Positions 3,602-43,549 of a stretch of DNA of 64,000 nt are shown in pieces; positions within the stretch are counted from its first letter, which is position 1, and the number at the start of each line of letters is the position of its first letter. The DNA is taken from sequence record ON470617.2; one strand, written 5' to 3'. The position numbers and the translations under genes were made by a program. The stretch is from Escherichia phage vB_EcoM-813R1. The notes under the pieces were generated by a model. That model saw only the letters and a list, made by a program, of their open reading frames with translations, did not search any database and was not told the origin of the DNA.

Positions 3602-3605
3602 ACTT

Positions 3606-3692: not shown

Positions 3693-3826
3693 GATTTTAC
3701 CTTCCTCCCCTACTCCCGAAAAAAATAAAAAAATTGCTTGTCACGAGAAAGTCAACAAGTGACTTTCAATAAAATCTCTTCCGAAAAGGGATTCACACAA
3801 GTGCCTTGTGTTTAAGGAAGAGTAAA

Positions 3827-5532
3827 TTGAGTAACTTACGCGAATACCAGAATCGTATTGCAGATATCGCAAAACGCTCTAAAGCTGTGCTTGGCTGGGC
3901 AAGCACTGCGCAGTTCGGTACTGATAACCAATTCATTAAAGATGATGCCGCGCGTGCCGCATCTATCCTTGAAGCTGCACGTAAAGACCCAATTTTTGCG
4001 GGTATCTCTGATAATGCCACCGCTCAAATCGCTACAGCGTGGGCAAGTGCACTGGCTGACTACGCCGCAACACATAAATCTATGCCACGTCCGGAAATTC
4101 TGGCCTCCTGCCATCAGACGCTGGAAAACTGCCTGATTGAGTCCACCCGCAATAACATGGACGCCACCAATAAAGCGATGCTGGAATCAGTCGCGGCAGA
4201 GATGATGAGTGTTTCTGACGGGGTTATGCGTCTGCCTTTATTCTTGGCGATGATCCTGCCTGTTCAGTTGGGGGCAGCTACCGCTGATGCGTGTACATTC
4301 ATTCCGGTTACGCGTGACAAGTCCGAAATCTATGAAATCTTTAACGTAGCGGGTTCTTCTTTTGGCTCCTATGCTATTGGTGATGTTCTGGACATGCAAT
4401 CCGTTGGCGTGTACAGTCAGTTGCGCCGCCGCTATGTGCTGGTTGCAAGCTCCGACGGCACCAGCAAAACTGCAACCTTCAAGATGGAAGATGTCGAAGG
4501 TCAGAATGTCCCGATTCGCAAAGGTCGCACAAACATCTACGTTAACCGTATTAAGTCTGTTGTTGATAACGGCTCCGGTACTCTGCTTCACACATTCAAT
4601 AACAAAGCAGGCGAACAAATCACTGTTACTTGCTCTTTGAATTACAACGTTGGTCAGATTGCCCTGTCGTTCTCCAAAGCGCCGGATAAAGGCACTGAGA
4701 TCGCCATTGAGGCGGAGATCAATATAGAAGCAGCTCCTGAGCTGATCCCACTTATCAACCACGAAATGAAGAGTTACACCCTGTTCCCAAACCAGTTCGT
4801 CATCGCGGCTGAGCACACGGTACAGGCGGCGTATGAAGCACAGCGTGAATTTGGTCTGGATCTAACTCCCTACAGTTCCGCACCCTGAAGGAATACCTAT
4901 CCCATGAGCAAGATATGCTTCGTCTTCGTATCATGATTTGGCGAACTCTTGCGACCGACTCCTTTGATATTGCACTACCAGCTAACCAGACCTTTGATGT
5001 GTGGGCAACCATCATTCGAGGCAAATTCCAGACGGTATATCGCGGTATTATTGAGCGTGTTAAATCTTCTGGTGCGATGGGGATGTATGCCGGTGCTGAT
5101 GCGGCATCTTTCTTCAAACAATTGCCGAAGGATTTCTTCCAGCCAGCAGAAGATTACATCCAGACCCCATACGTCCACTACATTGGCACTCTGTTCGGCA
5201 ACGTCAAAGTGTTCGAAGTACCAGAAGGTATTTGTACGAACCTGACCGCCGACGGTATCCAGTTCAGCCCAATGGATGTGCTGTGCTACGTCCGTGATGA
5301 AAATCCGGGCAAAGCGGGCTTCGTAACTGGTGATGCAGTCCCGGCTGTCCCATTCCAGCATCCGACCACCCCGGCACTAGTCAACCGAACCACTCTGTGG
5401 GGTTCGGCTATCAACGATATGCATCCACGCAACGGTGCTGACTACTTCACCCGTGTAACTCTGACTATGGCAAAAAATGGCGGAATTAACTTCCTGACCG
5501 GTAACACGATTGATGCTGGTGACTCTGAGTAA
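3827..5532 (+). CDS. Large virion structural protein, probably major head protein precursor (P1 gene 23 position); split by an apparent frameshift near 4870-4890
   Basis: Two ORFs (3806-4888 in frame 2 and 4915-5532 in frame 1) with frame 1 open upstream to at least 4861, so a single-base change fuses them into about 565 aa. Probable TTG start at 3827 after RBS aaggaag. Assigned by synteny (first gene after parS). Confidence 0.45.
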
Positions 5533-9160: not shown

Positions 9161-9184
9161 AAAGCTCCTACGGGAGCTTTTTTG
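9161..9184 (+). terminator. Rho-independent terminator closing the head/tail operon
   Basis: aaAGCTCCtacgGGAGCTtttttg: GC stem followed by a T-run. Confidence 0.6.
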
Positions 9185-9224
9185 TGCTTAAATTATGCCG
9201 GTATAGCGAAATTTTGAGCATATT

Positions 9225-9521
9225 ATGGAAATTGATTTTTCATACTCTCCTGAAACGATAGAACGAAGATTCGAAATAATTGGATGTAAAACTATTTCAG
9301 AGGAGCATTATTGGATTCTCTATGATGCCAATACATGGTTATGTGCCTTAGCAGAATGTCGGCCATCGTTATGTGCAGGGGAGGGAGGACTTCGACATAA
9401 GGTGCTGGCTACACTTGAAGTGAACACGTTACGATATTGGTGTGTCGAAATACTTAGGGATAACAAAGAATTACATTTATTATTGCTGAATAAGTGTGCG
9501 CCTCTGCGCAGGAAAGCATAA
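9225..9521 (+). CDS. Hypothetical 98-aa Cys/Trp-containing protein
   Basis: Isolated ORF in the variable region between the structural operon and the DUF3800-like module; no recognisable motif. Confidence 0.3.
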   Translation: MEIDFSYSPETIERRFEIIGCKTISEEHYWILYDANTWLCALAECRPSLCAGEGGLRHKVLATLEVNTLRYWCVEILRDNKELHLLLLNKCAPLRRKA

Positions 9522-9687
9522 GAAAACCCAACCGCCATACTGGAATTATCAGAAGAATATGTGCGGAAAGTTATAGCTAGCTATTGAAAAGCTAAAGTAG
9601 ATCGGTTAGATTTACCTTACTCATCTACCATGCGTAGAAAGAGCGATCGAACCCGATACATAGCAATATGTGTCGGGTTCAGCTTTT

Positions 9688-10167
9688 TTATGTCCCAAGT
9701 GCTCTTTTTCTGCTTTGTTTGAGTGTTCTGATTTTACTGTCATAGGTTACAACATAGGCTGTTTTGAGAAGCCAATAGTCTCTACGTGCGGATAGCACAA
9801 CAACGTAGTTTTCACACTCGTTCCAGATTACCCACTCTTCAGTTGGTCCTCGTCTTTCAGACCAACATGATATATCGCAATGGTCATAATTCCTTATCAT
9901 ATGCGCGATCCAGCGGATCCGCTTACACCGTTCAAGATCAGGTATTCGTTCTTCTTCTATTTTTCCCTCTGATACTAAATGCCAAAATCCGAACTCTTTC
10001 CCATCATATTCCGGTGAATAACGTAATCGAACAGGGAGACCCTTAAACGTTATATTAGAGATTAAAATATCTTCTCTAACAACATCATATACATCGTCTA
10101 TATACTCTTGCCAACTTCCATTGAAGTACAATAAATCTGGCATTTGAAGCATCAGCGAGCCTCCCAC
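9688..10167 (-). CDS. Hypothetical 159-aa protein, downstream partner of the DUF3800-like gene (candidate accessory/defence module)
   Basis: ORF directly downstream of and overlapping the DUF3800-like gene on the same strand; AT-rich; Trp/Cys-rich with no motif I can assign. Confidence 0.4.
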   Translation of the reverse strand: MGGSLMLQMPDLLYFNGSWQEYIDDVYDVVREDILISNITFKGLPVRLRYSPEYDGKEFGFWHLVSEGKIEEERIPDLERCKRIRWIAHMIRNYDHCDISCWSERRGPTEEWVIWNECENYVVVLSARRDYWLLKTAYVVTYDSKIRTLKQSRKRALGT

Positions 10168-10854
10168 ACGAAAATATTAAATTTACTTTCTGTTGGAAGA
10201 GTGCTTTTTAGTAACTCCCTGTTTGTATGTGATTTTATCCTGTTTATGACTTGGATTTTTCCCGCGTTGCTATTCATTCCTCGATGAACGTAGCCTAACG
10301 CACCAATGAAAAGATCCGTTAGCTGCAATTGTTGCACTTCATGAGATCGTATATGTTGAATTCTGTTTATCGACTCATGATTGTAATCATAGCGATCATT
10401 GTGAAGAACTCCTCTTAATTTCTCAATTTTTTCAATACCTAAAGTATCTTTTATATCTAGGTAGATATTGTATGTGTTGTTACTTTCTATTATGTTTTTT
10501 AAGACATAAAAAACATCTTATAATAGAAAGTATTGTGATCTTGATGGAATCGAGCATGGTCCAGTTGCTCTTTATCAGGAACAACAACACCTCTAAAGCG
10601 CAATGCTGGGTTGCTGAAGAAGTAATCTACGACCTCTAAGTAAAATTCAACTTTGGACGCAGATACTTTAGTCCACTTGATTTCGAAATCAGGTTTTAAA
10701 TTGTGTTTTAATTTTAATCCCTTGATGTCTCTAGCAATTTTTTTGTGATAGTGCCAGGACACCAAAGCGCACCCAATACCATGACTTTATTATGATCATT
10801 TAGTAGGTGACAGGATTCATCGCAGAATACATTAAATGTTCTTCGGTTCAACAT
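10152..10854 (-). CDS. DUF3800-like protein (N-terminal FCDES motif, C-terminal QLTDLFIGA motif); apparently frameshifted at a T7 run near 10740 and again near 10490
   Basis: Minus-strand start (+10852-10854) gives MLNRRTFNVFCDESCHL...; joins ORF 10499-10765 through a 7-nt homopolymer; downstream piece contains QLQLTDLFIGALGYVH. About 233 aa in total; strongly AT-rich. Confidence 0.45.
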
Positions 10855-11002
10855 GTTAACTCCACTTATTGTTAGGTAGAATTGTCCGTTAGTTGTTTAT
10901 TAATTGCAATAATGGGACGTTCTGATTTGCTAACTACGTCATCTTACCAGGACGCCTATGAGTTTTCCTCATGGCAAACTAGAGGTGTTGAAAGTATGCA
11001 TG

Positions 11003-11865
11003 GTTATAATTAGAGCAATCTATCACCCTCTGAATCCTACCGGTATACCCCATTGTTCGTTATCTTTATTTTTGGCTAATACCGCATTAAGTGCTTCGTT
11101 TACCGTCATGCAATGCGGTAGATTATCGAAGTTTGATATCCAGCCAATATCAGGAGAACGCTTGTTCTTCAGGTAAGCATATTTCCGCGCTGCCGCCTCT
11201 ACTTTCTGCTTGAACTCATGTTTTTGAGCGCGTTTTTGGATAACCGCAGATTGTCAGCCTTTGCTTTTGCCTCAGCGATCCATGAAGTCAGTTTTTTGAG
11301 GCTGGTCGTTCCGGTACCGCCGGAAACTGATCTTTTTGTTTTTTAATTTGTGACTTCTTATTCTTTATTGCCACGTCATCCTGACAGGGGAGGGGGTATC
11401 ATTTTGACATGGGGGTGTGGATAAAAAATCAAATAAAGCCAATGTCTTAGCGAGAACAGCTTTAACCTTGGTTGCGGCTGAAGAGATCTTTAATTTGCTT
11501 TCAATCAGCGCGTTTTTAGCGTGTTGTGCGAAGGCCAAAAAGGATGGTGTAAACCGGTACAGGTTAGCGCGGCGTTCACGGTGATCGCCGATAACAATCT
11601 CTACAGACAGAATTCCTTTGTTTACAGCTTCACGGAATGCACGAACGACGGTTGATTGGCTATAACCAGTTTCTGCCGCGATCAGGCGGTGAGGCTTGTG
11701 AATGAAGTATTCACTGGTTGTTGCCGCGAGATTTGCACATTGCGACAGGATATGCCCGGCGCTACGGGATAAACCGGAGTGTGTTACAAAGCAGGCCAAT
11801 TCATAGCCAGAAAAAGTAAAATCGCTCATCGTTATACAGCTCAGGAAAGTGACTTTAGCCAGCAT
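11003..11865 (-). CDS. repL: RepL-like lytic replication protein (HTH), apparently frameshifted near 11210 and 11350
   Basis: 166-aa ORF (11365-11865) with HTH GYSQSTVVRAFREAVNKGIL directly downstream of kilA; protein-like reading frames continue on the minus strand to about 11003, giving about 280 aa as expected for RepL. Confidence 0.45.
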
Positions 11866-12859: not shown

Positions 12860-13903
12860 TTAACCTATTGCTACTGGTTTTAACAAACCAGCATCAAGTA
12901 GCTTGCGAGTTAACCACTGCTGGCCTTTACCCGTTAATTGGGGCGTCAGCCGTATCTGGTAGCCATTTTCATCATCCAGCACCACTTCTTTCACCGTGAA
13001 ATACCCGGCGTTGATGTACTGTTGGCGCGGTACGTTTTTGCGCGCACCAAAAGCCATGAGAATGCCGTTCTGGCGCAACCATGAGAAAAGGGCGTTTTGC
13101 TTAAGTCCAACGACCTTTGCAAAGTTCCCGATCAGGATTCCATTGGCCGCTGATACCCGGTCGGCAAAATCGACTTTAGGGGCTGCGGCCACCAGCTGCT
13201 GTTCCAACTGCATTTTCTGTTCTGCCAACTCGGCAGCCAGGCGTAGAGCTTCTGGTAATGTTTGGGGGATCGATGGGGCAGGGGAGTTTGCCTGCTGCAA
13301 TTCTTCCAGTTTGTCGATCAGCGAACGGCGGACCGCTTTTGACTCACGCGCGGCGACTCGCAAGGCTTGTTTGTAGGTCATGGTGATGACCTCAAAAGAG
13401 CGCCCAGCCCTTGTGCCATGGGATTTTGCACTTTTTGTGTAAAATTCACCTTCAAGTTCATCGAGTATTTTTTCGATGAATTTATTGTTTCTAACCTCTG
13501 GTTCTCCACATAACTTGCGTGCCTCATTGACCATCTTCAACAATGTTTGGCTGTCGATTGTGTCTCCGGTGTTGGGGATGACATTCACGGCTGGTGTTGG
13601 CGTAGCTGACGTAACAGGTGCTGGTTTCTCAACATTCAAATTTTTACCGGTCACTCTATGTGCCTCCTTTCTCATTTCTGCTGCCACTGTTGCGTAACGT
13701 AGACGTCCTTGTTCAATCAAATAATCCCTGATCTCGGCTATCAGTAGCCTGTTGATCACAGCCTTATCTGTTCGGGTATAAAAACGTCTGGTTATCATGA
13801 AATAGTTAGCAATTGCGCCGGGGATCTCCCGTGTCGGCATACAGGCAGTATGCAAGGCGATCGCTTCGGCTATTTCATTACGGGTGACGAGAGGTGTTTT
13901 CAT
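12860..13903 (-). CDS. ant1: Antirepressor Ant (immI region)
   Basis: ORF 12860-14005; likely start MKTPLVTRNEIAE at 13903, immediately after the icd stop (translational coupling); C-terminal KilA-C/Ant domain shared with KilA. Confidence 0.6.
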   Translation of the reverse strand: MKTPLVTRNEIAEAIALHTACMPTREIPGAIANYFMITRRFYTRTDKAVINRLLIAEIRDYLIEQGRLRYATVAAEMRKEAHRVTGKNLNVEKPAPVTSATPTPAVNVIPNTGDTIDSQTLLKMVNEARKLCGEPEVRNNKFIEKILDELEGEFYTKSAKSHGTRAGRSFEVITMTYKQALRVAARESKAVRRSLIDKLEELQQANSPAPSIPQTLPEALRLAAELAEQKMQLEQQLVAAAPKVDFADRVSAANGILIGNFAKVVGLKQNALFSWLRQNGILMAFGARKNVPRQQYINAGYFTVKEVVLDDENGYQIRLTPQLTGKGQQWLTRKLLDAGLLKPVAIG

Positions 13904-14118
13904 AACCCCCTGAACGTCGGCAGAGAAGGGGAGGCTCCAGTAACTAAGTGAATTGCGCGAGTTAGTTGAAAAACGGGCAGTAAAAATGCAGGGGCCATCA
14001 GGCAATTGAGAGCGTGCTTCGTCTTCTGTTGCTGCGATAACGAAGTGATAGTGGTGTTTTTACAGGAATAGAAACGCCAGATGAATTCTTGGCGTGCGCA
14101 AGGATTGGCATTAACCAT
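13900..14118 (-). CDS. icd: Icd-like small protein (interference with cell division), translationally coupled to ant
   Basis: About 72-codon reading frame starting MVNANPCARQEF... and ending on the codon adjacent to the ant start; position between the c4-like RNA region and ant. Confidence 0.5.
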   Translation of the reverse strand: MVNANPCARQEFIWRFYSCKNTTITSLSQQQKTKHALNCLMAPAFLLPVFQLTRAIHLVTGASPSLPTFRGL

Positions 14119-14275
14119 AGTTACGGCCTCATTCGTAGGTTTAACAACCTGCGCCCCGCTGCTAAACGGGTGGCAGGACGTGACGGGGTTAGCAGACTGG
14201 CACGAATGAAACCAGCAGGCCGAAGCCTCCCCATCACGCCCCACCATAATTCGGGCGTAACGTGGTTTTACGGAC

Positions 14276-14365
14276 ACAAAAATTCCGCAATATCGGATAT
14301 CTGCGGTTGTCCGCATTCGTATTCAGGCTGCTAAACCCGGTCGCAGAATTTGCTACGACGGCGGA
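14276..14365 (-). ncRNA. c4: Candidate c4-type antisense RNA with intrinsic terminator
   Basis: Between the C1 operator/promoter (about 14434) and icd; minus-strand hairpin CCGCAGATATCCGATATTGCGG followed by AATTTTTGTG (top strand 14275-14306). Exact 5' end not determined. Confidence 0.35.
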
Positions 14366-14433
14366 ACTATAAGCCTGAACGATTAAAAGGTCAATATGAT
14401 GCGAAAAGATAGCATTCGCGACTTAAAAATACA

Positions 14434-14450
14434 AATTTATTAGAGCATTA
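14434..14450 (-). promoter_or_regulatory. C1 operator (16/17) with overlapping second degenerate copy, at the immI promoter
   Basis: Top strand aaatttattagagcatt followed by atttgtgcaataaatgcac. Confidence 0.6.
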
Positions 14451-14545
14451 TTTGTGCAATAAATGCACAAATGGATCTAATAACCTCTTTTTTTAAAGGC
14501 GAAAATATGTACCCTAAATGGGTTATAAGGCAGGTGAGATTATAA

Positions 14546-14677
14546 TGAGAAGACTATTACTACCGTTATTATTTATGGCCGGGACTGTTAATGCAGCATC
14601 AAGCGTAAAGGAGATTTGTACCGATTATACGAAATACCTTGGGCACGTTTACGCCTTTGCGATCAATGACTATTAAT
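14546..14677 (+). CDS. 43-aa secreted peptide (signal peptide MRRLLLPLLFMAGTVNA)
   Basis: Short ORF with RBS and classic signal peptide, first gene of an AT-rich plus-strand cluster. Confidence 0.3.
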
Positions 14678-14679
14678 CC

Positions 14680-15015
14680 ATGCGTAGGAGTGGATTTATG
14701 CTGATTCGTTTGTTTTTAGTGCTTTCCTTTTTAACATTTAATGTTTTTGCTGATGAAGTTGACTTTTCGAAGGTAGATTGCAATTCAGTGGAAACAAGAA
14801 AAGCTCTTATTGAAGAATATAACGAAATATTATCGTCATATGGAATAACAGTGGTTGATTCTTATAATCAAAAAACTATTCAGAAAGGAATAAATAAACT
14901 GGTTTGTTATGGTGTTTACCAATATTCAGATGGCTCTTCGGAGTATGTTATTTATAAAGCATACCCAAATAGTCTTGGTGAATTGATTAGTGAGTTTAAA
15001 CCGATTAATGAGTGA
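14680..15015 (+). CDS. Small secreted protein (signal peptide; about 90 aa mature)
   Basis: 111-aa ORF with hydrophobic N-terminus LIRLFLVLSFLTFNVFA; AT-rich codon usage. Confidence 0.4.
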   Translation: MRRSGFMLIRLFLVLSFLTFNVFADEVDFSKVDCNSVETRKALIEEYNEILSSYGITVVDSYNQKTIQKGINKLVCYGVYQYSDGSSEYVIYKAYPNSLGELISEFKPINE

Positions 15016-15022
15016 ATGGAAA

Positions 15023-15616
15023 ATGAAATTATTTAATGTAATAACATTTTGTTGTGCTATTTTTGCTGGAAGCGCGATAGCTGATAATAAATTGCCAGAT
15101 TGGCTTTCTACTTCAAAAAAAGATTATGATTTAGTAAGGGTGTTCTATTTGTCTGGATTTGCCTCGAAAGCAATGAATAATCAATTTGGTTATCATTTTC
15201 CATCTGAGTTGGTTAATGATTTTAAAGATAATGAATTTGCCGCTCAGGAAAAATGGAATACAATTTCAATTCTATATGGTGAAATAAAATCCATAAGAAT
15301 GGTGAATAATGAACCAATTGTAGAGTTATTTACTCCAGGGGAAAATGCAACGCCACTAAATTATATCAAATTGAAAGTGTTGGATTCAAAACAAAACTCT
15401 CTGTTAAAACTAAAAAAATGGGATGATATATATGCAGTGTGCTCCGGTGCTAATTTTAGGTTAGTGCCAATTCTGAGCAACTGCACTCCAGCAACTGACG
15501 TCATTGATGCTGCACTCTCTTTTCTGGTGAATATATGTTCCCTGCTTTTGATTCTTTTTCACCTACTAAGCAAAACGTCAAATATATATTCACAAATCAA
15601 GATCCTGTTCAGATGA
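15023..15616 (+). CDS. Secreted protein, possibly SimC-like superinfection-exclusion factor
   Basis: Start MKLFNVITFCCAIFAGSAIA (signal peptide) inside ORF 14990-15616; about 198 aa; position between immI and pmgC matches the P1 sim locus. Confidence 0.4.
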   Translation: MKLFNVITFCCAIFAGSAIADNKLPDWLSTSKKDYDLVRVFYLSGFASKAMNNQFGYHFPSELVNDFKDNEFAAQEKWNTISILYGEIKSIRMVNNEPIVELFTPGENATPLNYIKLKVLDSKQNSLLKLKKWDDIYAVCSGANFRLVPILSNCTPATDVIDAALSFLVNICSLLLILFHLLSKTSNIYSQIKILFR

Positions 15617-15801
15617 TGAATTTTATAGGGTACCTATCCTTAGTCGATACAACGAAGGATAAGAATAAAATGGATATGGTTCGTAAGTGTACGCCTTGGA
15701 AGCCGGAATGTTCACAACAATTCGTTGATGTAATGGAAGGATTTGATAACATCATGTATAAATATGAGAGGGAATTTAAAAATTACATAGAATTAAAATA
15801 G
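15535..15801 (+). CDS. Hypothetical small protein (62-88 aa)
   Basis: ORF overlapping the end of the preceding gene; likely real start at the internal MM (about 15613); followed by a terminator. Confidence 0.3.
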   Translation: MFPAFDSFSPTKQNVKYIFTNQDPVQMMNFIGYLSLVDTTKDKNKMDMVRKCTPWKPECSQQFVDVMEGFDNIMYKYEREFKNYIELK

Positions 15802-15833
15802 TATTTGAAAGGATAGTCAATTTAAGTTTTAAC

Positions 15834-15864
15834 AAAACGCCCATTAAAGGGCGTTTTATTGTTT
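15834..15864 (+). terminator. Rho-independent terminator
   Basis: aaAACGCCCattaaaGGGCGTTttattgtttt. Confidence 0.65.
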
Positions 15865-15986
15865 TACTCAAAACAATCTGATTATGTGATAACCATATCA
15901 TATTCCTCATTCCACCTACACTGATTACCCCCCAGACAACAACATTCCTACTCAATGAACAAATGACTACTCGTAGAATCGGTTAA

Positions 15987-18175: not shown

Positions 18176-21100
18176 ATGGAAAGAAAAAACGCCAACATTG
18201 ACGATGTTATAAGGACAGTTGAAACCGCCAGCGCGAAAGAGCTGGAAGAGCTTGCAGGTATTCGGGAAGCTGTTGAAGATTTGAAAGGGGAACGAGTTGC
18301 AACTGTTGATCCTGTCTCTCGCAGTGTGTCGGCATTAAATCGCACAATCGAAAATTCACGTCCTGACTTTGTGACCAATGTGCCATCAGTGGACTCTATT
18401 GTTGACGCAATGAAACGGCTTAATTTAGGGGACGTTTCTCGTATACGGAGGACAAAGTCACTAACCGTGAACAGCAGGCTGCACCAACAGCGCACAATCC
18501 CCCAAATAGACGAAGAGAGGCAATAACAGAGGATGTTAAAGCACAGCGGTTAGAAACGGTCAAACTCGCTCGTGATTTGAAAGGGGAACGCGTTGCAACG
18601 GTTGACCCAGTATCTCGCAGTGTGTCGGCATTAAATCGAACAATCGAAAATTCCCGGCCAGACTTTGTGGCCAATGCGCCATCAGTGGACTCTATTGTTG
18701 ACGCAATGAAACGGCTTAATTTAGGGGGCGTTTCTCGTATACGGGAGGACAAAGTCACTAACCGTGAACAGCAGGCTGCACCAACAGCGCACAATCCCCC
18801 AAATAGACGAAGAGAGGCAATAACAGAGGATGTTAAAGCACAGCGGTTAGAAACGGTCAAACTCGCTCGTGATTTGAAAGGGGAACGCGTTGCAACGGTT
18901 GACCCAGTATCTCGCAGTGTGTCGGCATTAAATCGAACAATCGAAAATTCCCGGCCAGACTTTGTGGCCAATGCGCCATCAGTAGACCCTATTGTTGACG
19001 CAATGAAACGGCTTAATTTAGGGGACGTTTCTCGTGTAGTTCAGGAGGGCATTGCTCAACAGGAACAGCAGGCCAAATCAACTACACCAAAGGGTAAAAA
19101 AAGACGCAGGAAGGCTATAACAGAAGATGTAAAGGCGCAACGGACCGAAGCAGCCGAACACGCTCGCGAAATGTTCGGTCAAAAAGGCGGTGCGCAAAAA
19201 GCCAAAACCAACGCGATGCGCGTGGTCGTTTTATTGGAAAGTCAGGGAGTAAGGCCGCAGCGGAAGATGCCCGTGCTGAACGTGCTGAAAAGGCCAGGCG
19301 CAAAGAGGATGATGAGCGTCTAAATGCTGAATCAGGTTTATTAAAAAAACTGTCAAAAGTAGCTGAAGGCATAGGTAACCCTTCAGAGACTCGTGCCGTC
19401 GATGCGTTAGGTTATGCCGTTGCTGGTCCATTGTGGGCAGCAGGGAAGGAGCTTGGCGGGATATCAAAAGAAGTTGGTGGATCGCTTAATGGCGCCAGAA
19501 AGTCTATTGCCGATGTGATTCGTGGCAATGACGATAACAGCCGTAGAAAAGGTTTTTTAGGCGTAAATCGCAAAATAGTGCCGATGTCGTTCAGGTTAAC
19601 ACCCAAAAACGGACGGTTCAGGAACTTCAGGAGCAGACCAGCGAAATTAAAGAGGGCAATGACAAGATTCTCAGCGCCCTTGATCAGATAGCCAAAAACA
19701 CCGGGAAAAAGAAGGGCGGCTTGCTGTCCAAACTATTTAGCCTGTTAGGGAAGGGGGCCGGTGGCGTCGCGTCGTTGTTAATGGGGCGTGGCATGCTGAA
19801 AAAGCTGGAGCACTCGCTTTTGGCGCTCTGGGGGTAAAGAAACTTGTAGGAATGCTACGCGGTGGTGGTAAGAAGACTCTCGCCCATGAAGGCGGAGATT
19901 TGGCTGCCCGGGCAGCAGGTAAACTTGGATTAAAGGCAGTTGGTAAAGGGGCGTTACGCGCAATTCCCCTAGTCGGCACAGTGGCTGGAGGTATTTATGA
20001 TGCGGTAACCGGTTGGAATGATACAGAAGCGCAACGTCGAGCGTTTGGGCTTAAATCAGGACAAGATCCATCATTCCAGCAAAAAGCCGCTTATACGTTA
20101 GCTAATATTCTTGATATGGGGGGACTGGTATCTGGTATTAGCAGCGCCATTGGTGAGGTTCTCAAATCACTTGGATTTGAGGATATCGGCAATATGTTGC
20201 AATCATTTTCGACGGAAAGTATTGCACAGGCCATTGATAGTGGGGTTACCAACTTAGAAACATATATTTCTAATCTTGGCGACACCATTTCTACCAAGTT
20301 CGATGATTACACAGCAAAGATTGGTGATGCTGTTTCAGCATGGTTTAGCGATACATCTAATAAGTTGCTTGAAAAGCTGGATGCCATAAAAGACTTCTTT
20401 ACTGTCGATAACCTGAAACAGGTTTTCAGTGATGCAATTGATAGTGCAATTGATTTCATTAAGAACCCGGGGAAACACATTAAAGAGGCGGCTGGTAATA
20501 TTTGGGATGGGGTTAAAAATTTACCCGGTAAAGCAATAGATGCAGCGTTTGATGCCGTTAAAAATACCCCTGCGGCAATAATTGTATCAAAAATACCCAA
20601 TCCGATCGGCGAGGCTAATGCGAAAGAAATCACTCCAGAGTTAAAAGCTCCGGTTAATAGCCACCAGGAGACGTCTGATTCTAAAACTGAATCCGATGCC
20701 AAACAGAGTAATATTGCTACCCGCGTGATAAATGCGGCACTGGACACGGCGAAAGATAGCAATAAAACAGTTAAACAAACTGCCAATCAGATTATCAATG
20801 CAAATGCCGTAGAAACGGGCAATAGCGCGTTGCAGAAAATTGATAAAGCTATTGGTCAAAATAGCTCGTCATCATCCTCGCTTAATACCACTGGCACCAG
20901 GAATGACATTCAGAAAGCTGCGGATACCTACAATAATGGCAACTTGGATGTAAAAGTCGGAAGTCTTGGAGCTGAAGGTAAGGCAAATCTCGATAAGTTG
21001 GCTCCGTATTTTGCTGAACTAGAGAATAAATATAGCCTTCCTGAAGGTACTCTTTACGCGATCGCTGCAACTGAATCTGGTGGTGATCCTAACGCAAAAT

Positions 21101-24888: not shown

Positions 24889-25323
24889 ATGTCTGACGTC
24901 TCAACAAACCTCTATAAGAGTCAGTTGTTGGACTATTACTATCAGCGGCGCGCTGAATCGTCCATTAACAAAGGCTCTCGATTTTTAATCAGCAAGGCCG
25001 TTTTCGGTACCAGTTCACTGGTTACTAAGAAAGGAGATGGCACTTATGAGATTGGAGAACTGCCAAAGGCTTTCGATCTGGCAGAACTGACCAGTCAATT
25101 TTGCACCATCAACCTCGTCCCAACCTACTCAGGAGGGATAATTACTGTCCGAATGGACCTTGATCAAAGTCAGTTGCAGGAAGGGAAAAACTACCCATTC
25201 AACACTCTGGTTGTTCTGGATAACGAGAATAAGCCAATCGCCATTATTTGTGTCCAAGAAGACTCGCTGTATGTGGGCAAAACATATACCGCAGTTATGG
25301 CCATAAACACGACTACAGCATAA
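24889..25323 (+). CDS. Tail-fibre-associated structural protein (P1 R position)
   Basis: 144-aa ORF immediately upstream of the tail-fibre gene. Confidence 0.4.
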   Translation: MSDVSTNLYKSQLLDYYYQRRAESSINKGSRFLISKAVFGTSSLVTKKGDGTYEIGELPKAFDLAELTSQFCTINLVPTYSGGIITVRMDLDQSQLQEGKNYPFNTLVVLDNENKPIAIICVQEDSLYVGKTYTAVMAINTTTA

Positions 25324-25334
25324 GGATATGCTTG

Positions 25335-28300
25335 ATGAATGACGTTACAGTTGTTACATCGGTTACTTACCCATCACCCGAGTCGTTGGCTCTGGTGGCT
25401 GATGTGCAATACCACGAACCATATCTGTCAGCCGCTCTAAACCGAAAATTCAGGGGAATTGTTGACCCGGGATTTTATGCTGGTTTCTTGCCTAAGCCTG
25501 GCGGTGGGATGAAACTGTTAATCACCTCAGTGGATGGTGATAAAACCGCTGGCGCGGCGTCAGTGAATATTGGTGAATTCTACCAGGTAACTATTCAGCA
25601 GCGTAAGGATATTTCTCTTGCACTTAGCGCAGGTAAGAAATATGCAATTGTGCTGAAGGGAAGATACCTCCTTGGAGAAGATTCTTATCAGGTTAATACC
25701 GCGTCACATATTCATGCGGCTGAATTTGTTGCCAGAACCTATACCGATTCATATCAGTTAGGAGATGGGGAACTGCTTGTTTGTACGGTGAATATCCCTG
25801 CTGGCGTATCTGCTATTACTCAGGAAATGATAGATGTATCCGACCGCATCGATCTCACGATAGGCATTGAAATTTCCGACTCTGTAACCAGTACCAGAAG
25901 TGATGTCGCTGCAAGTTCGCTGGCAGTTAAAAAAGCCTACGATCTGGCGAAAAGCAAGTATACGGCGCAGGATGCAAGCACAACGCAAAAGGGATTAGTT
26001 CAGCTCAGTAGTGCTACTAACAGCACGTCTGAAGTGCTGGCCGCCACACCGAAAGCTGTCAAGGCTGCATATGACCTGGCTAACGGGAAGTATACGGCCC
26101 AGGATGCAACCACGACACAAAAAGGGATAGTTCAGCTCAGTAGCGACACCAACAGCACTTCTGAAACATTAGCTGCAACGCCAAAAGCGGTTAAAGCTGC
26201 ATACGATCTAGCAGCCGGAAAGGCACCATCCAGTCATACACATCCCTGGAATCAGATCACTGGTGTGCCAACAGCTTCATTGACAGCGAAAGGCATCACT
26301 CAGCTCAGTAGCGACACCAACAGCACTTCTGAAACATTAGCTGCAACTCCAAAAGCGGTTAAAGCTGCATACGATCTAGCAGCCGGAAAGGCACCATCCA
26401 GTCATACACATCCCTGGAATCAGATTACTGGTGTGCCAACAGCTTCATTGACAGCGAAAGGCATCACTCAGCTCAGTAGTGCCACTAACAGCACGTCCGA
26501 AGTGCTGGCCGCCACACCGAAAGCAGTCAAGGCAGCATATGACCTGGCTAACGGGAAGTATACGGCCCAGGATGCAACCACGACACAAAAAGGGATAGTT
26601 CAGCTCAGTAGCGACACCAACAGCACTTCTGAAACATTAGCTGCAACTCCAAAAGCGGTTAAAGCTGCATACGATCTAGCAGCCGGAAAGGCACCATCTA
26701 GTCATACACATCCCGGAATCAGATTACTGGTGTGCCAACAGCTTCATTGACAGCGAAAGGCATCACTCAGCTCAGTAGTGCCACTAACAGCACGTCCGAA
26801 GTGCTGGCCGCCACACCGAAAGCAGTCAAGGCAGCATATGACCTGGCTAACGGGAAGTATACGGCCCAGGATGCAACCACGACACAAAAAGGGATAGTTC
26901 AGCTCAGTAGCGACACCAACAGCACTTCTGAAACATTAGCTGCAACTCCAAAAGCGGTTAAAGCTGCATACGATCTAGCAGCCGGAAAGGCACCATCTAG
27001 TCATACACATCCCTGGAATCAGATTACTGGTGTGCCAACAGCTTCATTGACAGCGAAAGGCATCACTCAGCTCAGTAGCGACACCAACAGCACTTCTGAA
27101 ACATTAGCTGCAACTCCAAAAGCGGTTAAAGCTGCATACGATCTAGCAGCCGGAAAGGCACCATCCAGTCATACACATCCTGGAATCAGATTACTGGTGT
27201 GCCAACAGCTTCATTGACAGCGAAAGGCATCACTCAGCTCAGTAGTGCCACTAACAGCACGTCCGAAGTGCTGGCCGCCACACCGAAAGCAGTCAAGGCA
27301 GCATATGACCTGGCTAACGGGAAGTATACGGCCCAGGATGCAACCACGACACAAAAAGGGATAGTTCAGCTCAGTAGCGACACCAACAGCACTTCTGAAA
27401 CATTAGCTGCAACGCCAAAAGCGGTTAAAGCTGCATACGATCTAGCAGCCGGAAAGGCACCATCCAGTCATACACATCCCCGAATCAGATCACTGGTGTG
27501 CCAACAGCTTCATTGACAGCGAAAGGCATCACTCAGCTCAGTAGTGCCACTAACAGTACGTCTGAAGTGCTGGCCGCCACACCGAAAGCTGTCAAGGCTG
27601 CATATGACCTGGCTAACGGGAAGTATACAGCCCAGGATGCAACCACGACACAAAAAGGGATAGTTCAGCTCAGTAGCGACACCAACAGCACTTCTGAAAC
27701 ATTAGCTGCAACGCCAAAAGCGGTTAAAGCTGCATACGATCTAGCAGCCGGAAAGGCACCATCCAGTCATACACATCCCTCGAATCAGATCACTGGTGTG
27801 CCAACAGCTTCATTGACAGCGAAAGGCATCACTCAGCTCAGTAGTGCCACTAACAGCACGTCCGAAGTGCTGGCCGCCACACCGAAAGCAGTCAAGGCAG
27901 CATATGACCTGGCTAACGGGAAGTATACGGCCCAGGATGCAACCACGACACAAAAAGGGATAGTTCAGCTCAGTAGCGACACCAACAGCACTTCTGAAAC
28001 ATTAGCTGCAACTCCAAAAGCGGTTAAAGCTGCATACGATCTAGCAGCCGGAAAGGCACCATCCAGTCATACACATCCCTGGAATCAGATCACTGGTGTG
28101 CCAACAGCTTCATTGACAGCGAAAGGCATCACTCAGCTCAGTAGTGCCACTAACAGCACGTCTGAAGTGCTGGCCGCTACACCGAAAGCTGTCAAGGCTG
28201 CATATGATTTGGCTAATGGAAAGCAAGCGGCAGACGCTACGCTCACTGCTCTAGCGGCACTAGCTACCGCAGCAGATAAACTCCCTTATTTCACAGGGGT

Positions 28301-28853
28301 TGATCGTGCCGCGTTAACTGCACTGACAAGTGTTGGACGTGCAATTCTTAGTAAGCCCAGTATTCAGAGCGTTCTTAATTACCTTGGTTTGGGAGAAACG
28401 ATAGATAAAGCCTCCGGAGCTATGCAGAAATCGGCTAATGGATATGATATTTCTGATGTATCAGCCTTCCGAAATGCGCTCCAGTTAGGGACCGCTGCAA
28501 CACGAGATGTTGGAGCAGATAATGCCTCGAAGTTACTGGATTTAGACAGCTTCAGGTCAATGATGTCAGGTAATGGCTACATCTACATTCCATGCATTGC
28601 GACGACAGGAAACCCGGTGAAACTTATGTTGCAGTGGGGAATGGTGGCAACACAAAAGGGAGTTGATGCTGGATATGCCTTACCATTTGCTTTTCCCTAT
28701 GCAGGTTTGTTTGCGACCGGAAACCGTGGAACATCTGGCTACAATGCCGCGATGAATGTGCGTATTGCCAGCAGAACGCATATCAGTATTCAGAACTGGT
28801 CGCCATCCGGAGAGGGCACCGAAGATTGTTGTTTTATCGCGTTGGGGTATTAA
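25335..28853 (+). CDS. S: Tail fibre protein S (constant part Sc plus currently fused variable part Sv), with a greatly expanded phage tail-fibre repeat array; three apparent frameshifts
   Basis: Start MNDVTVVTSV at 25335; repeats of the tail-fibre motif TTQKGIVQLSS(A/D)TNSTSE(V/T)LAATPKAVKAAYDLA; four ORFs (25248-26750, 26732-27217, 27199-27516, 27498-28853) each break at the same HTHPWNQITG position; C-terminal Sv domain lies inside the invertible segment. Confidence 0.7.
25960..28200 (+). repeat. In-frame tandem repeat array in S: alternating 300-bp and 168-bp units
   Basis: The string ggcatcactcagctcagtag recurs at 26292, 26460, 26759, 27059, 27225, 27525, 27825 and 28125 (spacings 168, 299, 300, 166, 300, 300, 300). 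Confidence 0.85.
28373..28398. other. Candidate cixL recombination site (Cin crossover site at the Sc/Sv junction)
   Basis: ttcttaattaccTTggtttgggagaa; core TTGGTTT(G/A)GG(A/G)A is shared with the inverted copy at 30282-30307. Confidence 0.5.
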
Positions 28854-28855
28854 GA

Positions 28856-29521
28856 ATGAATAAATTTTATAAAGGCTCTTTCTATCCGGAAGCACTAAAA
28901 GATGTATATATCAGCGCCGGTTCATGGCCTGAAAATGGCGCTGATGTTGATGATGAAACAATGGCAATTTACACAGGCGTAGCGCCAGAAGGCAAAACGC
29001 TGGGGGCTGATAAAAATGGTAATCCTGCGTGGATTGATATCCCGCCACTCTCCGCTGAACAACAGATTATTCAGGCTGAACAGAAAAGAACGGTATTGCG
29101 TTCTATGGCTGATAAGGAAATAGTCTGGAGACAGGATGCTTTTGATGCGGAAATCGCGACGGCAGAAGAAACCGCCGCGTTATCTGAATGGAAAAAATAC
29201 CGGGTCTTGCTGATGCGCGTTGATACATCAAATCCCGTCTGGCCTACGCCTCCGGGGAGCAGGCCAATTGATATCCGGCGCGGTGCTGGTATCTGTTGCC
29301 GTCACCGCGTCAATGTAATCCAGCACAGCGTTAAGTCTAGTTGTTTCTGCCTGCGTCAGTTTACGTCCGGCCTGCAATTTCAGTTGAATCAGACTGATGG
29401 AAGCCATTGCAGTATCAATCAGCGACTGGCGCTGTGCTTCTGCCGCTTCTACTGCGGCGCTATGCTGTGCCTCGGTATCCGTCACCCATTTCTCACCATC
29501 CCATTTATCGTATGGCGTTAA
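28856..29521 (+). CDS. U: Tail fibre assembly chaperone U (Tfa family); 3' end uncertain
   Basis: Start MNKFYKGSFYPEAL at 28856; conserved Tfa C-terminal signature ...NPVWPTPPG at about 29262, after which the ORF reads antisense to U' as Cys-rich sequence, suggesting a lost stop or indel. Confidence 0.55.
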   Translation: MNKFYKGSFYPEALKDVYISAGSWPENGADVDDETMAIYTGVAPEGKTLGADKNGNPAWIDIPPLSAEQQIIQAEQKRTVLRSMADKEIVWRQDAFDAEIATAEETAALSEWKKYRVLLMRVDTSNPVWPTPPGSRPIDIRRGAGICCRHRVNVIQHSVKSSCFCLRQFTSGLQFQLNQTDGSHCSINQRLALCFCRFYCGAMLCLGIRHPFLTIPFIVWR

Positions 29522-40032: not shown

Positions 40033-41103
40033 TCAGCCAACAGTGCTCGTGCAAATCTCTTGGTGGTTTTTCGACAAATGCCTCTTCAGCCACATCCTGC
40101 CAGGGATTTGTTTAGCCCATTCAGCTATAGCGTTATGGTTTGCCGAGAATAACGGTATTGTATAGGCCTTCAGCCAGTCTAATGTGCTGGAGTTGTGTTT
40201 TTGAGCGTGATGTTTCGCATGGTGTTTGGCGATCACGATCGTAGGCACTACCCATTTACTACCGTCAGTCATTGTGAAGTGCATATTACGGGGAACAGAT
40301 GACTTTTCCATCAACTCCCGAATCCCGGGAAATTTCCCCAAGATCAATCGGCGATATTCATCGCTATTGCGCCCACCAAACTCTTTGGCTTTGAATTCAA
40401 GATATGCTTCAGAAACGAGAGGTGAATCCTCTGTGTTTAGAGTTATCGCCGTGAAAAAACCAGCAGGATTGTTTTTACTATGGGCCAACCGGTGATGCGA
40501 ATCATAAAAGTACCCTTTCTCGCGTTCCGATGGTTTCGACAGCAACAGCAGGCGCGAGTCATAATTGGTTAAATTGCCAGTTATCACTGCATGAGCGCGA
40601 TCGCTGATTTCCGCCGAGTTAATAACGATGAAAAGATCGTGCGGTCCAGTAAAACCAGCCAGAGACTCTTCGTTATTCAGACAATAGGTTATATAGACGC
40701 ATCCCCATGTTTCACTGATATGCACCAACCCTTTGTCAGGGTGTATTCTGAAATAATTGCCAAGAAAAGGGTGTTTTTGGGTAACTCGCTCCCAATAACG
40801 GAACATATAGTCAATTATTGTTTTTCGACTATCGTTAATCGCAGGAGAAACAACCACTGTACGGGAACACGAATACAGTATTGTTTGCAGGATGCTAATC
40901 ACTGCCACAATAGAGGTTTCCCCAATACCATGTGGTGTGGTGGCAGTGACTTTGGCTCCGGTGTTCTTTATCGCGTTAATAATTTTTGCTTGATGAGGTG
41001 TTAACTCAATATCAAGCAACTCTTTTGCTGCCAGTTCCCAATTGTCTTTATACCGTTCTATCAGTGCTAACCAGGCAGATTCATTCTGTATACGATTAAT
41101 CAC
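40033..41103 (-). CDS. Hypothetical protein with degenerate P-loop, terminase-large-subunit-like N-terminal region
   Basis: 356-aa ORF; N-terminal TPHQAKIINAI...TATTPHGIGETSIVAV resembles a Walker-A region with Thr in place of Lys; the last about 70 aa are His/Lys-rich and low-complexity (possible frame error). Confidence 0.3.
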   Translation of the reverse strand: MINRIQNESAWLALIERYKDNWELAAKELLDIELTPHQAKIINAIKNTGAKVTATTPHGIGETSIVAVISILQTILYSCSRTVVVSPAINDSRKTIIDYMFRYWERVTQKHPFLGNYFRIHPDKGLVHISETWGCVYITYCLNNEESLAGFTGPHDLFIVINSAEISDRAHAVITGNLTNYDSRLLLLSKPSEREKGYFYDSHHRLAHSKNNPAGFFTAITLNTEDSPLVSEAYLEFKAKEFGGRNSDEYRRLILGKFPGIRELMEKSSVPRNMHFTMTDGSKWVVPTIVIAKHHAKHHAQKHNSSTLDWLKAYTIPLFSANHNAIAEWAKQIPGRMWLKRHLSKNHQEICTSTVG

Positions 41104-41883
41104 TTTCCACCTCTTCCGTGGTGTTTTCTTGCAGTTCTGTTAATGCAGCACGACATAGGTTCCGGGCATTGGCTATAGCCACACTTTTGACTTCATCCGT
41201 CATCGTGCAGGTAATGTACTGATCGAGTTCTTCAGCGCGGATGATGCTTTTGCCAATCAGAAACTGTATTTGCCATAGCAGATCGGCATCCATAATCAGA
41301 ATTTCTGCCGGGCCTTCAGGGCCAGCCGGGAAGGAAACATAAGACTGTTTGCCCAGGCCGACAACTCGACAACTTGCTTCAAGAATTGCGCGCTTGAGGT
41401 CTGACTTTATAACGGAAACAGGTTGATTTTCACCAGTGATTACGCCGTTGACATGGAAAGGCATGTAGCTTGAAATACGCTCCACTTTCCACACGCCAGC
41501 AAGCGATCCTTCATGCAGCACAATGGGGGTAACCGCGAGTTTCATCTCACCATATAACTGCTGGCAGATAGCTGGATTGCTGAATACATCTAAAGGCTCA
41601 CATTCAAACAGCGGCGCAATCTGCATGAGGTCCATCATGGTCATCCCTGGGGTACGAGCAGTAATGAATTTGCGCATACCAGTATCCATTGCGCTCCAGA
41701 TTGCTACACCATGCTTTTTGCTCACTTCTTCAGTAAAGCCAAGGTGGCACATGATGGTTTTTTCGATAGCCAGATCGGAGATAGAAACCTTTTCGCCAGG
41801 TACACCATCATTATTGATGGTCACTTCGACACTCTGGCCATTACGCAGGCGGTATTGAATTGTTTTAGTATTTTGTGCTGCCA
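41096..41883 (-). CDS. Hypothetical protein (about 262 aa)
   Basis: ORF 41096-42004, probable start MAAQNTKTIQ at 41883; overlaps the downstream gene start by 8 nt; no recognisable motif. Confidence 0.3.
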
Positions 41884-42086
41884 TAGTCTTTTCTCTGCTT
41901 AAAAACTGATGTATTGCGCCTTCAGGTGGGTCAGGAATGTTTTCCCACCAGCGAAAGCAATATCTCGGGGTGTTCTGTTCGTTAAAAACGCGTTCCATTG
42001 CCAACTTTGGCGTTTTTTAGCGAGTTCGTGCTTTTGTTGGCGTTTGGACCACCGCTTTTCTTTCAGTCGTTTTTTACTCATAAACT

Positions 42087-43302: not shown

Positions 43303-43549
43303 ACTCCGGCAGCTCCGCCGACTTTCGACAATGAAGTTATCGCTGGCGGCGATAGTTTTCGACTCGATTTTCATGGCGGTATATGTGCTCAATGAGACGT
43401 GGCCACTGGAACCGCTATTATATGCCGGGCTTCGGCTGTGCCTGACATTTTTGAGCATGGCTGCAAGATTGATGCAGCAGAAAGAAACCGCTTCAGATTG
43501 CCCACGTCGCGCGGTGCGAAAATATATGGCACGCAGACGAAGGCGATAA
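43295..43549 (+). CDS. Small membrane protein with Arg-rich C-terminus
   Basis: 84-aa ORF overlapping the lyz stop; hydrophobic core, C-terminal RKYMARRRRR; terminator follows. Confidence 0.3.
   Translation: MNKLRQLRRLSTMKLSLAAIVFDSIFMAVYVLNETWPLEPLLYAGLRLCLTFLSMAARLMQQKETASDCPRRAVRKYMARRRRR

What the first reader, a model, noticed from the sequence alone, without database searches (positions are those of the whole stretch)
25960..28200. Expanded tail-fibre repeat array in S
About 2.2 kb of S consists of in-frame tandem repeats of the phage tail-fibre repeat motif, organised as alternating 300-bp and 168-bp units (eight occurrences of the same 20-mer at regular spacing). This gives a fibre shaft of roughly 1170 residues in total. 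Long perfect repeats are recombinationally unstable, so shaft length is probably variable in the population and may tune reach to the receptor.
Basis: seen in the sequence. Interest (0 to 1): 0.55.

Follow-up and report, generated by a model that had tools for sequence, protein, structure and literature searches.

The report
Long P1 tail-fibre repeat array, miscalled
The tail-fibre gene S of this P1-like plasmid-phage really does carry an unusually long run of 15-16 shaft repeats whose number varies between otherwise identical relatives, but the gene is not in frame as assembled, because of what look like nanopore base-calling errors at a methylated motif in the repeat.

Summary
The repeat array is real: about 2.27 kb (window 25956-28244) inside the constant part of P1-type tail-fibre gene S (25335-28853). 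The 20-mer occurs 8 times. The protein has 15 near-identical units of 44 aa (a) and 56 aa (b), ordered a-b-b-a-b-a-b-b-a-b-a-b-a-b-a, which Pfam reads as 16 Phage_fiber_2 repeats; P1 S has 2.

It is not in frame as assembled. Three 1-nt deletions split S into four ORFs, and there is also one Trp-to-Ser substitution. All lie in the CCCTGG (Dcm site) of the same repeat motif.

Three independent plasmids carry the same array intact (3522 nt, 1173 aa). Across the window, 29 of 33 clean 1-nt deletions sit in homopolymers or CCWGG runs. They also break c1, sit, cin and a darB-like gene, and an unrelated phage record has the same miscalls. The frame breaks are therefore almost certainly nanopore consensus errors.

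The length polymorphism is supported between isolates. Eight other S alleles have identical N-terminal 215 aa and near-identical tips but 5, 6, 9, 10, 12, 12, 13 or 14 units. The window's 15 is the longest seen. Whether length tunes reach to the receptor is untested.

This is an ordinary kind of feature: a large member of a known family.

The parts
25335..28853 (+). Tail-fibre gene S (P1 gpS type). It is 3519 nt as assembled and split into four ORF fragments. The intact form is 3522 nt and 1173 aa.
   Evidence: ORFs. 92% nt identity to P1 S over nt 1-747. 99.8% identical, apart from three 1-nt gaps, to the intact S of NZ_CP041960.1, which is annotated as tail fiber protein WP_155367602.1. Pfam: 16 x PF03406 plus a PF21882 Gp53-like_C tip.
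25956..28244 (+). Tandem repeat array in the constant part (Sc) of S. It has 15 units, 7 of type a (132 nt, 44 aa) and 8 of type b (168 nt, 56 aa, carrying an HTHPW motif), in the order a-b-b-a-b-a-b-b-a-b-a-b-a-b-a.
26712..26716 (+). Frame break 1. The sequence reads CCCGG where intact relatives have CCCTGG; a T is missing between 26714 and 26715.
27179..27183 (+). Frame break 2. The sequence reads CCTGG where intact relatives have CCCTGG; one C is missing.
27478..27482 (+). Frame break 3. The sequence reads CCCCG where intact relatives have CCCTGG; T is replaced by C and one G is missing.
   Evidence: The same miscall occurs in the independent record ON470615.2.
27777..27782 (+). In-frame miscall. 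The sequence reads CCCTCG where intact relatives have CCCTGG (G to C at 27781), giving Trp to Ser in unit b12.
28379..28399 (+). cix-like crossover site (TTACCTTGGTTTGGGAGAAAC, encoding ..NYLGLGE..). It marks the Sc/Sv junction: Sc is about 1020 aa and Sv 153 aa.
   Evidence: Several database S proteins end exactly at ..SVLNYLG. P1 has cixR at the same Sc/Sv junction.
28856..29271 (+). U, the tail-fibre assembly chaperone for the expressed tip. It carries a 1-nt deletion at about 29254.
29244..29845 (-). U', the chaperone for the alternative tip.
29845..30332 (-). Sv', the alternative C-terminal tip segment (ends ..FNYIVRAA). It carries a 1-nt deletion at about 30285.
   Evidence: Database S proteins with this tip have 6-14 units.
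30282..30307 (.). Second cix-like site (..TTCCCTAAACCAACGTTTAAGAAA..), inverted relative to the first.
   Evidence: Read directly from the sequence. This is inferred by eye and was not scored.
30363..30934 (+). cin-type serine invertase. It is split into two ORFs by a T6-to-T5 deletion at 30672.
24889..25323 (+). R, the tail-fibre operon gene upstream of S.

Best explanation
The region is the shaft-encoding repeat array of tail-fibre gene S in a P1-like (IncY) phage-plasmid.

The array lies entirely in the constant part Sc, upstream of the Cin crossover site. Both alternative tips (Sv and Sv') are therefore carried on the same long shaft.

It encodes 15 near-identical Phage_fiber_2 units. The core is ..KG-I/L-x-QLSS-x-TNSTSE-x-LAATPKAVKAAYDLA-x-GK. 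Each core is followed by one of two linkers:
- a short one, YTAQDATTTQ;
- a long one, APSSHTHPWNQITGVPTASLTA.

Copy number changes in steps of 44- and 56-codon units, seen as 100- and 156-codon ab and abb modules. The likely mechanism is unequal homologous recombination or replication slippage between near-identical units, which always preserves the frame. This yields alleles of 5-15 units with unchanged baseplate-attachment and receptor-binding ends. The window holds the longest allele seen.

The three frame breaks and the Trp-to-Ser change are not biological. They are nanopore-type consensus errors at the Dcm-methylated CCTGG, which sits in a C-run in every long unit. The true gene is the intact 1173-aa S found in pEC2_5 and two other plasmids.

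Shown: the array, its architecture, the intact relatives, the copy-number series and the error signature.

Inferred:
- the recombination mechanism;
- a trimeric shaft that lengthens with each added unit;
- an HxH metal site in each long unit.
For: Array and architecture.

Family and synteny.

Intact identical array: three independent records (Houston, Netherlands, Zhengzhou) carry it, each annotated as a single 3522-nt CDS. The window differs from pEC2_5 S at six aligned positions. Five of them lie in the CCCTGG motif.

Error signature:
- 33 clean 1-nt deletions against pEC2_5 in 51.4 kb.
- 29 of the 33 lie in homopolymers of 4 or more or in runs overlapping CCWGG (7.4% expected, p = 4e-29).
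- 13 lie in runs overlapping CCWGG (1.6% expected, p = 1.5e-15).
- CCCTGG/CCAGGG sites are altered at 4 of 8 in the array and 5 of 24 elsewhere. Control pentamers are altered at 4-7%.

Other genes hit: the deletions also break sit (4 times), a darB-like methylase (5 times), the c1 repressor (twice), cin, U and Sv'. A lysogen without C1 could not be maintained (established P1 biology).

Independent case: phage record ON470615.2 has the same miscalls at 3 of its 5 CCCTGG sites, and its S is annotated as fragments.

Literature: Dcm motifs and then homopolymers dominate ONT consensus errors in Enterobacteriaceae (PMC6591954).

Copy-number series: eight alleles have 0 mismatches in the N-terminal 215 aa, 0-1 in the C-terminal 202 aa, and 5, 6, 9, 10, 12, 12, 13 or 14 units. 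All are strings of ab and abb modules. pIso00270_01 (12 units) has flanks 99.97% and 99.67% identical to pEC2_5 (15 units).

Array dynamics: inner units are nearly identical and edge units diverged, as expected for an array homogenised by unequal exchange.
Against: - No reads are available, so the error origin of the frame breaks is inferred from pattern, not observed.
- Some short alleles in databases could be collapsed short-read assemblies, which would inflate the apparent polymorphism.
- The same 15-unit array in four isolates shows that turnover is not fast.
- No structure of the repeat could be obtained (AF2 monomer mean pLDDT 37). 'Shaft lengthening' and the HxH metal sites rest on analogy (PMC6116203).
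Confidence: 0.87

Rival explanations
1. The frameshifts are real. S is a pseudogene in a decaying, defective P1-like prophage-plasmid, and the array is a relic.
For: As assembled, S is four ORFs. cin, U, Sv', sit and c1 are also broken, which is how a dead prophage could look.
Against: - Nearly all breaks are 1-nt deletions in homopolymers or at CCWGG (29 of 33). That is a technology signature, not a mutational spectrum.
- There are no stop-codon substitutions or larger deletions in S.
- A c1-null P1 plasmid could not be kept as a lysogen.
- The identical miscall CCCCGAAT recurs in an unrelated record.
- The rest of S is 99.8% identical to the intact alleles.
Confidence: 0.06
2. The array length is an assembly artefact: a repeat expansion or mis-join, with the true array shorter.
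For: Tandem repeats of 300-468 nt at 96-100% identity are hard to assemble, and this assembly is visibly error-prone.
Against: Three independent assemblies have exactly the same 15-unit order, with a gapless alignment apart from the three 1-nt deletions. A 2.3-kb array is easily spanned by long reads.
Confidence: 0.04
3. The -1 breaks are functional: programmed ribosomal frameshifting or phase variation that switches fibre expression or produces truncated fibres.
For: The breaks recur at the same motif of different repeat units.
Against: - There is no slippery heptamer at CAT-CCC-GGA-ATC.
- The C-run is only 2-4 nt, too short for slipped-strand phase variation.
- Three separate shifts would all need correcting.
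- Intact relatives show the motif encodes HTHPWNQ in frame.
- The same error class occurs genome-wide.
Confidence: 0.01
4. Copy-number differences among relatives are neutral drift or assembly noise, with no effect on adsorption. This rivals only the 'tunes reach' part of the interpretation.
For: - There is no correlation between Sc length and tip length (rho = -0.08).
- The modal Sc is 708 aa, with scatter on both sides.
- No experimental data were found.
Against: Flanks are invariant while the array spans a three-fold range, and every variant keeps the frame and the module grammar. This shows that functional fibres are retained, but it does not show adaptation.
Confidence: 0.55

Closest known systems
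Bacteriophage P1 tail-fibre protein gpS (Punavirus P1, NC_005856, S 34878-37841) with the Cin-invertible C segment
   Same: - Same operon order: R-S-U/U'-Sv'-cin.
- 92% nt identity over the first 747 nt.
- cix-type site at the Sc/Sv junction.
- PF03406 repeats in Sc. P1's annotated 132-nt 'repeated element a1' corresponds to the a unit here.
   Different: - P1 Sc is 453 aa with 2 PF03406 matches plus b1/b2 elements of 222 nt. Here Sc is about 1020 aa with 16 matches.
- P1 Sv is 534 aa with a Gp34_trimer domain. Here Sv is 153 aa with a Gp53-like_C tip.
- Total length is 987 aa in P1 and 1173 aa here.
S alleles of other P1-like IncY phage-plasmids, e.g. pEC2_5 NZ_CP041960.1 (WP_155367602.1) and pIso00270_01 NZ_CP095126.1
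   Same: pEC2_5, NZ_CP068934.1 and NZ_CP093228.1 have the same 15-unit array and the same tip. Flanks are 99.8-99.97% identical.
   Different: - Those alleles are intact; the window has three 1-nt deletions and a W-to-S change at CCCTGG.
- Other alleles with identical ends carry 5-14 units.
Phage Mu tail fibre S (gp49; PDB 5YVQ, 8JU3, 9KI1) and the G segment
   Same: It carries one copy of the same motif (KKGLVQLTSATDSPSETLAATAKAVKIAMDNAN), followed by the ..NLGLQET.. inversion junction. The tip is invertible.
   Different: Mu has a single repeat against 15-16 here. The PDB matches are sequence matches only. Whether the motif is resolved in those entries was not checked.
Pfam PF03406 Phage_fiber_2 (Pf2) repeats of lambda Stf and EHEC prophage side tail fibres
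   Same: The same repeat family, found in trimeric fibre proteins whose modules vary in length between alleles (PMC3368898).
   Different: Those proteins have one or a few Pf2 copies, combined with collagen or coiled-coil segments. Here a long homogeneous Pf2 array forms most of the protein.
HxH iron sites of trimeric fibres and spikes (T4 gp37, R-type pyocin fibre, P2 gpV)
   Same: Each 56-aa unit contains H-T-H. In those structures, three copies of an HxH motif form an octahedral Fe site on the trimer axis (PMC6116203).
   Different: This is analogy only. No sequence or structural match was shown here, and metal binding is untested.
Oxford Nanopore consensus errors at Dcm (CCWGG) motifs and homopolymers
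   Same: The window's deletions relative to its nearest relative fall in exactly these two classes. The literature reports Dcm motifs as the dominant class of ONT consensus error in Enterobacteriaceae, followed by homopolymers (PMC6591954).
   Different: The sequencing platform of this record is unknown. The attribution is by pattern.

Membership tests
P1-type tail-fibre gene S (Punavirus) | N-terminal constant region homologous to P1 gpS | tested here: met
   92.0% nt identity over S nt 1-747 to NC_005856 S. The protein starts MNDVTVVTSVTYPSPES.., as P1-like S proteins do.
P1-type tail-fibre gene S (Punavirus) | Operon context R-S-U, an inverted U'-Sv' pair, and an adjacent cin invertase | tested here: met
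   The window's ORFs are collinear with the annotated pEC2_5 genes and with P1.
P1-type tail-fibre gene S (Punavirus) | cix crossover sites in inverted orientation, one inside S at the Sc/Sv junction | tested here: inconclusive
   A unique site at 28379-28399 encodes NYLGLGE. A second, similar inverted site at about 30282-30307 was identified by eye. Both tip orientations occur among database relatives. Inversion itself was not testable.
PF03406 Phage_fiber_2 repeat proteins | Matches to the Pfam repeat model above the gathering score | tested here: met
   962 bits against a cutoff of 22, with 16 matched stretches in the intact allele.
Trimeric fibre shaft with HxH metal sites | HxH motifs positioned on the three-fold axis and coordinating Fe or Zn | not testable with these tools
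   The HTH motif is present in all 8 long units. The only structure attempt, a monomer from a single sequence, gave mean pLDDT 37.
Nanopore Dcm/homopolymer consensus error | Indels concentrated in CCWGG motifs | tested here: met
   13 of 33 clean deletions lie in runs overlapping CCWGG, against 1.6% expected (p = 1.5e-15). 9 of 32 CCCTGG/CCAGGG sites are altered, against 4-7% of control pentamers.
Nanopore Dcm/homopolymer consensus error | Indels are mostly 1-nt homopolymer contractions | tested here: met
   43 deleted against 13 inserted bases. The 33 clean deletions sit mostly in runs of 4-8.
Nanopore Dcm/homopolymer consensus error | Read-level or platform evidence | not testable with these tools
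   The window's record was not found in the three annotated collections or in the protein index.
Programmed -1 ribosomal frameshift | Slippery heptamer X XXY YYZ at the shift site | tested here: not met
   The sites read CAT CCC GGA ATC, CAT CCT GGA and CAT CCC CGA. There is no heptamer.
Phase-variable simple-sequence contingency locus | Long homopolymer or short-unit tract at the shift site | tested here: not met
   The C-run is only 2-4 nt at the three sites.

The most novel reading that the evidence does not exclude
Shaft length of the P1-type fibre is a second, rapidly evolving adsorption determinant, independent of Cin tip inversion. Recombination within the Sc array would generate fibres of 5 to 15 or more units on identical baseplate and tip modules. 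Selection by O-antigen or capsule depth, or by tail geometry, would favour different lengths in different E. coli hosts. The eight HxH-bearing long units would act as metal-clamped registration points that let the trimer fold at any copy number.
Probability: 0.2. Interest if true: 0.5.

Novelty: new member of a known kind. Interest (0 to 1): 0.27.

Why it matters
Biologically, P1-like phage-plasmids are common carriers of resistance genes in E. coli. Here 846 of 5426 complete genomes matched the S query, although that count includes chromosomal prophage fibre genes. The S shaft turns out to be a hypervariable module: a three-fold range in unit number with invariant ends. This gives a clean natural series for testing how fibre length affects adsorption.

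Practically, every long repeat unit carries a Dcm site inside a C-run. Nanopore-based assemblies therefore tend to break this gene. That happened in this window and in ON470615.2, where S is annotated as fragments. Such 'pseudogenes' should not be read as defective phages.

Tried and rejected
- **Structure.** An AlphaFold2 monomer from a single sequence (window:27801-28850) gave mean pLDDT 37 and is unusable. No fold search was run on it, and no multimer tool is available.
- **Compensation hypothesis.** The idea was that a long array makes up for a short tip. Among 42 relatives with the junction motif, Sc and Sv lengths are uncorrelated (rho = -0.08). It is rejected within this clade. P1 itself (short Sc, long Sv) is a single contrary data point.
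- **Source record.** The window's own record could not be identified. There was no 100% match in phages, plasmids or E. coli genomes. The 451-aa fragment is not in the protein index.
- **Literature.** Searches for an explicit description of S repeat-number polymorphism in P1-like elements found only general statements that the tail-fibre/C-segment region is variable. The P1 genome paper (PMC523184) is not held.
- **cix search.** An automatic inverted-repeat search did not find the cix pair. A 3-mismatch search found only one site. The second site was read by eye.
- **Solved structures.** A PDB sequence search for the repeat unit found only Mu S.

Full report
**What is in the sequence**

The window is the first 64 kb of a P1-like IncY phage-plasmid that starts at repA. 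It is collinear with E. coli plasmid pEC2_5 (NZ_CP041960.1).

Gene S starts at ATG 25335 (MNDVTVVTSVTYPSPES...) and ends at 28853. Tandem Repeats Finder and the repeat finder place an array at 25956-28223 with periods of 132, 168, 299/300 and 467.

The core CAGCTCAGTAG occurs 15 times at 132/168-nt spacing.

At protein level there are 15 units of two kinds:
- a, 44 aa: ..KGITQLSSATNSTSEVLAATPKAVKAAYDLANGKYTAQDAT
- b, 56 aa: ..KGIVQLSSDTNSTSETLAATPKAVKAAYDLAAGKAPSSHTHPWNQITGVPTAS

Their order is a-b-b-a-b-a-b-b-a-b-a-b-a-b-a.

Pfam reads 16 Phage_fiber_2 (PF03406) repeats plus a Gp53-like_C tip.

Inner units differ by 0-5 nt (a) or 0-12 nt (b), while the two edge units are diverged. The longest exact repeat is 299 nt as assembled and 380-389 nt after repair.

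**The array is not in frame as assembled**

The 20-mer spacings are 168, 300, 299, 168, 299, 299, 300. S is cut into four ORFs: 25248-26750, 26732-27217, 27199-27516 and 27498-28853.

All four lesions fall in the same hexamer of the b unit, CAT-CCCTGG-AAT:
- CCCGG at 26712 (T lost);
- CCTGG at 27179 (C lost);
- CCCCG at 27478 (T to C and G lost);
- CCCTCG at 27777 (G to C, giving Trp to Ser).

CCTGG is the Dcm methylation site.

**Why these are sequencing errors**

(i) Intact relatives exist. Three independently sequenced plasmids carry the same array as one 3522-nt CDS of 1173 aa: pEC2_5 from Houston, pRIVM_C029554_1 from the Netherlands and pEC-16-35-3 from Zhengzhou. The window differs from pEC2_5 S at six aligned positions, and five of them lie in CCCTGG.

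(ii) The whole window shows the same pattern. Against pEC2_5 it has 33 clean isolated 1-nt deletions in 51.4 kb.
- 29 lie in homopolymers of 4 or more or in runs overlapping CCWGG (7.4% expected, p = 4e-29).
- 13 lie in runs overlapping CCWGG (1.6% expected, p = 1.5e-15).
- CCCTGG/CCAGGG sites are altered at 4 of 8 in the array and 5 of 24 elsewhere. Control pentamers are altered at 4-7%.

(iii) The same class of deletion breaks other genes: sit (4 times), the darB-like methylase (5 times), cin, U, Sv' and the c1 repressor (twice). A P1 plasmid without C1 could not persist as a prophage.

(iv) An unrelated record shows the same thing. In Escherichia phage vB_EcoM-673R5 (ON470615.2), 3 of 5 CCCTGG sites in the array are miscalled, including the identical CCCCGAAT. 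Its S is annotated as fragments.

(v) The literature matches. Wick et al. 2019 (PMC6591954) report that Dcm motifs account for about 70% of ONT consensus errors in Enterobacteriaceae, with homopolymer lengths next.

I could not see reads, so this remains an inference. I put it at about 0.93.

**Is the array length real?**

The gapless identity of the 15-unit order in four independent assemblies argues strongly against an assembly expansion.

**Comparison with P1 and relatives**

P1 S is 987 aa. Its Sc is 453 aa with only 2 PF03406 matches, and GenBank annotates repeated elements a0, a1, b1 and b2 there. Its Sv is 534 aa with a Gp34_trimer domain.

In the window, the cix-like site TTACCTTGGTTTGGGAGAAAC at 28379-28399 places the Sc/Sv junction at residue ~1020. 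Sc is therefore more than twice P1's, and Sv is only 153 aa. A second, inverted cix-like site lies at about 30282-30307, just before cin.

Because the array lies wholly in Sc, both invertible tips share the same shaft.

Among 110 full-length homologues the core-motif count runs from 5 to 14, and total length from 648 to 1136 aa. Among the 42 relatives in which the Sc/Sv junction could be located, the modal Sc is 708 aa.

The most telling result concerns eight alleles. They have 0 mismatches in the N-terminal 215 aa and 0-1 in the C-terminal 202 aa, yet carry 5, 6, 9, 10, 12, 12, 13 or 14 units. All are built as strings of ab (100 aa) and abb (156 aa) modules.

pIso00270_01 (12 units) has flanks 99.97% and 99.67% identical to pEC2_5 (15 units).

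The window's allele is the longest found. Copy number is thus far more variable than the surrounding sequence. Even so, the 15-unit form is shared by four isolates on three continents, so turnover is not rapid.

**Mechanism**

Shown:
- a frame-preserving, modular copy-number series with homogenised inner units and diverged edge units;
- exact repeats of several hundred nucleotides.

Inferred:
- Unequal RecA-dependent exchange or replication slippage between units adds or removes 300- or 468-nt modules.
- Each unit adds a segment to a trimeric shaft.
- The H-T-H in each b unit may form an axial octahedral metal site, as HxH motifs do in T4 gp37, R-pyocin fibres and P2 gpV (PMC6116203).

Whether length affects adsorption is untested. 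A simple compensation between Sc and Sv length is not seen (rho = -0.08).

**Novelty**

The gene family, the repeat family and the invertible-tip system are all textbook. The exact intact protein is already in RefSeq as WP_155367602.1.

I found no paper that describes the repeat-number polymorphism of S in P1-like plasmids. Published accounts only state generally that the tail-fibre/C-segment region is variable.

I rate this as a large new member of a known kind. It comes with a useful practical caveat about nanopore errors in this gene.

Noticed in passing
whole window, e.g. 888, 3719, 8149, 11233, 19196, 30672, 33125, 36405, 47239, 52233, 63195: There are 43 deleted bases relative to pEC2_5, 33 of them clean isolated 1-nt deletions. 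Almost all are in homopolymers or next to CCWGG. The assembly looks like an unpolished nanopore consensus, so many apparent pseudogenes in this window are probably artefacts.
   Followed up: yes
63130-63953: The c1 immunity repressor is frameshifted after codon 24 (an A7-to-A6 contraction at 63195) and again at about 63860. This is biologically implausible for a maintained prophage.
   Followed up: partly
18278-19035: The sit gene (tape-measure/transglycosylase) contains its own tandem repeat of about 297 nt at about 97% identity. It appeared as off-diagonal BLAST hits against pEC2_5.
   Followed up: no
54002-58561: A Type III restriction-modification module (EcoP1-like mod and res) sits in a segment that is absent from pEC2_5. 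mod is split into two ORFs covering profile positions 1-330 and 328-657, and res starts at profile position 81. These are probably more base-calling frameshifts.
   Followed up: partly
9184-11008, 13271-15923, 39977-42082: These segments have no match to pEC2_5 (mosaic replacement). Two ORFs at 40036-42004 on the minus strand (356 and 302 aa) have no Pfam or PADLOC match.
   Followed up: partly
L008 (ON470615.2) 2604-3830: Escherichia phage vB_EcoM-673R5 has the same CCCTGG miscalls in its S array (CCCTGAAT twice, CCCCGAAT once). Its S is annotated as three fragments.
   Followed up: yes
30282-30290: One of the 1-nt deletions (C4 to C3 at about 30285) falls inside the second cix-like site. The site's sequence in this record is probably not exact.
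   Followed up: no
43531-43536: There is a 6-nt in-frame insertion (ACGCAG) relative to pEC2_5. This is the only multi-base indel in well-aligned sequence and is likely a real difference.
   Followed up: no
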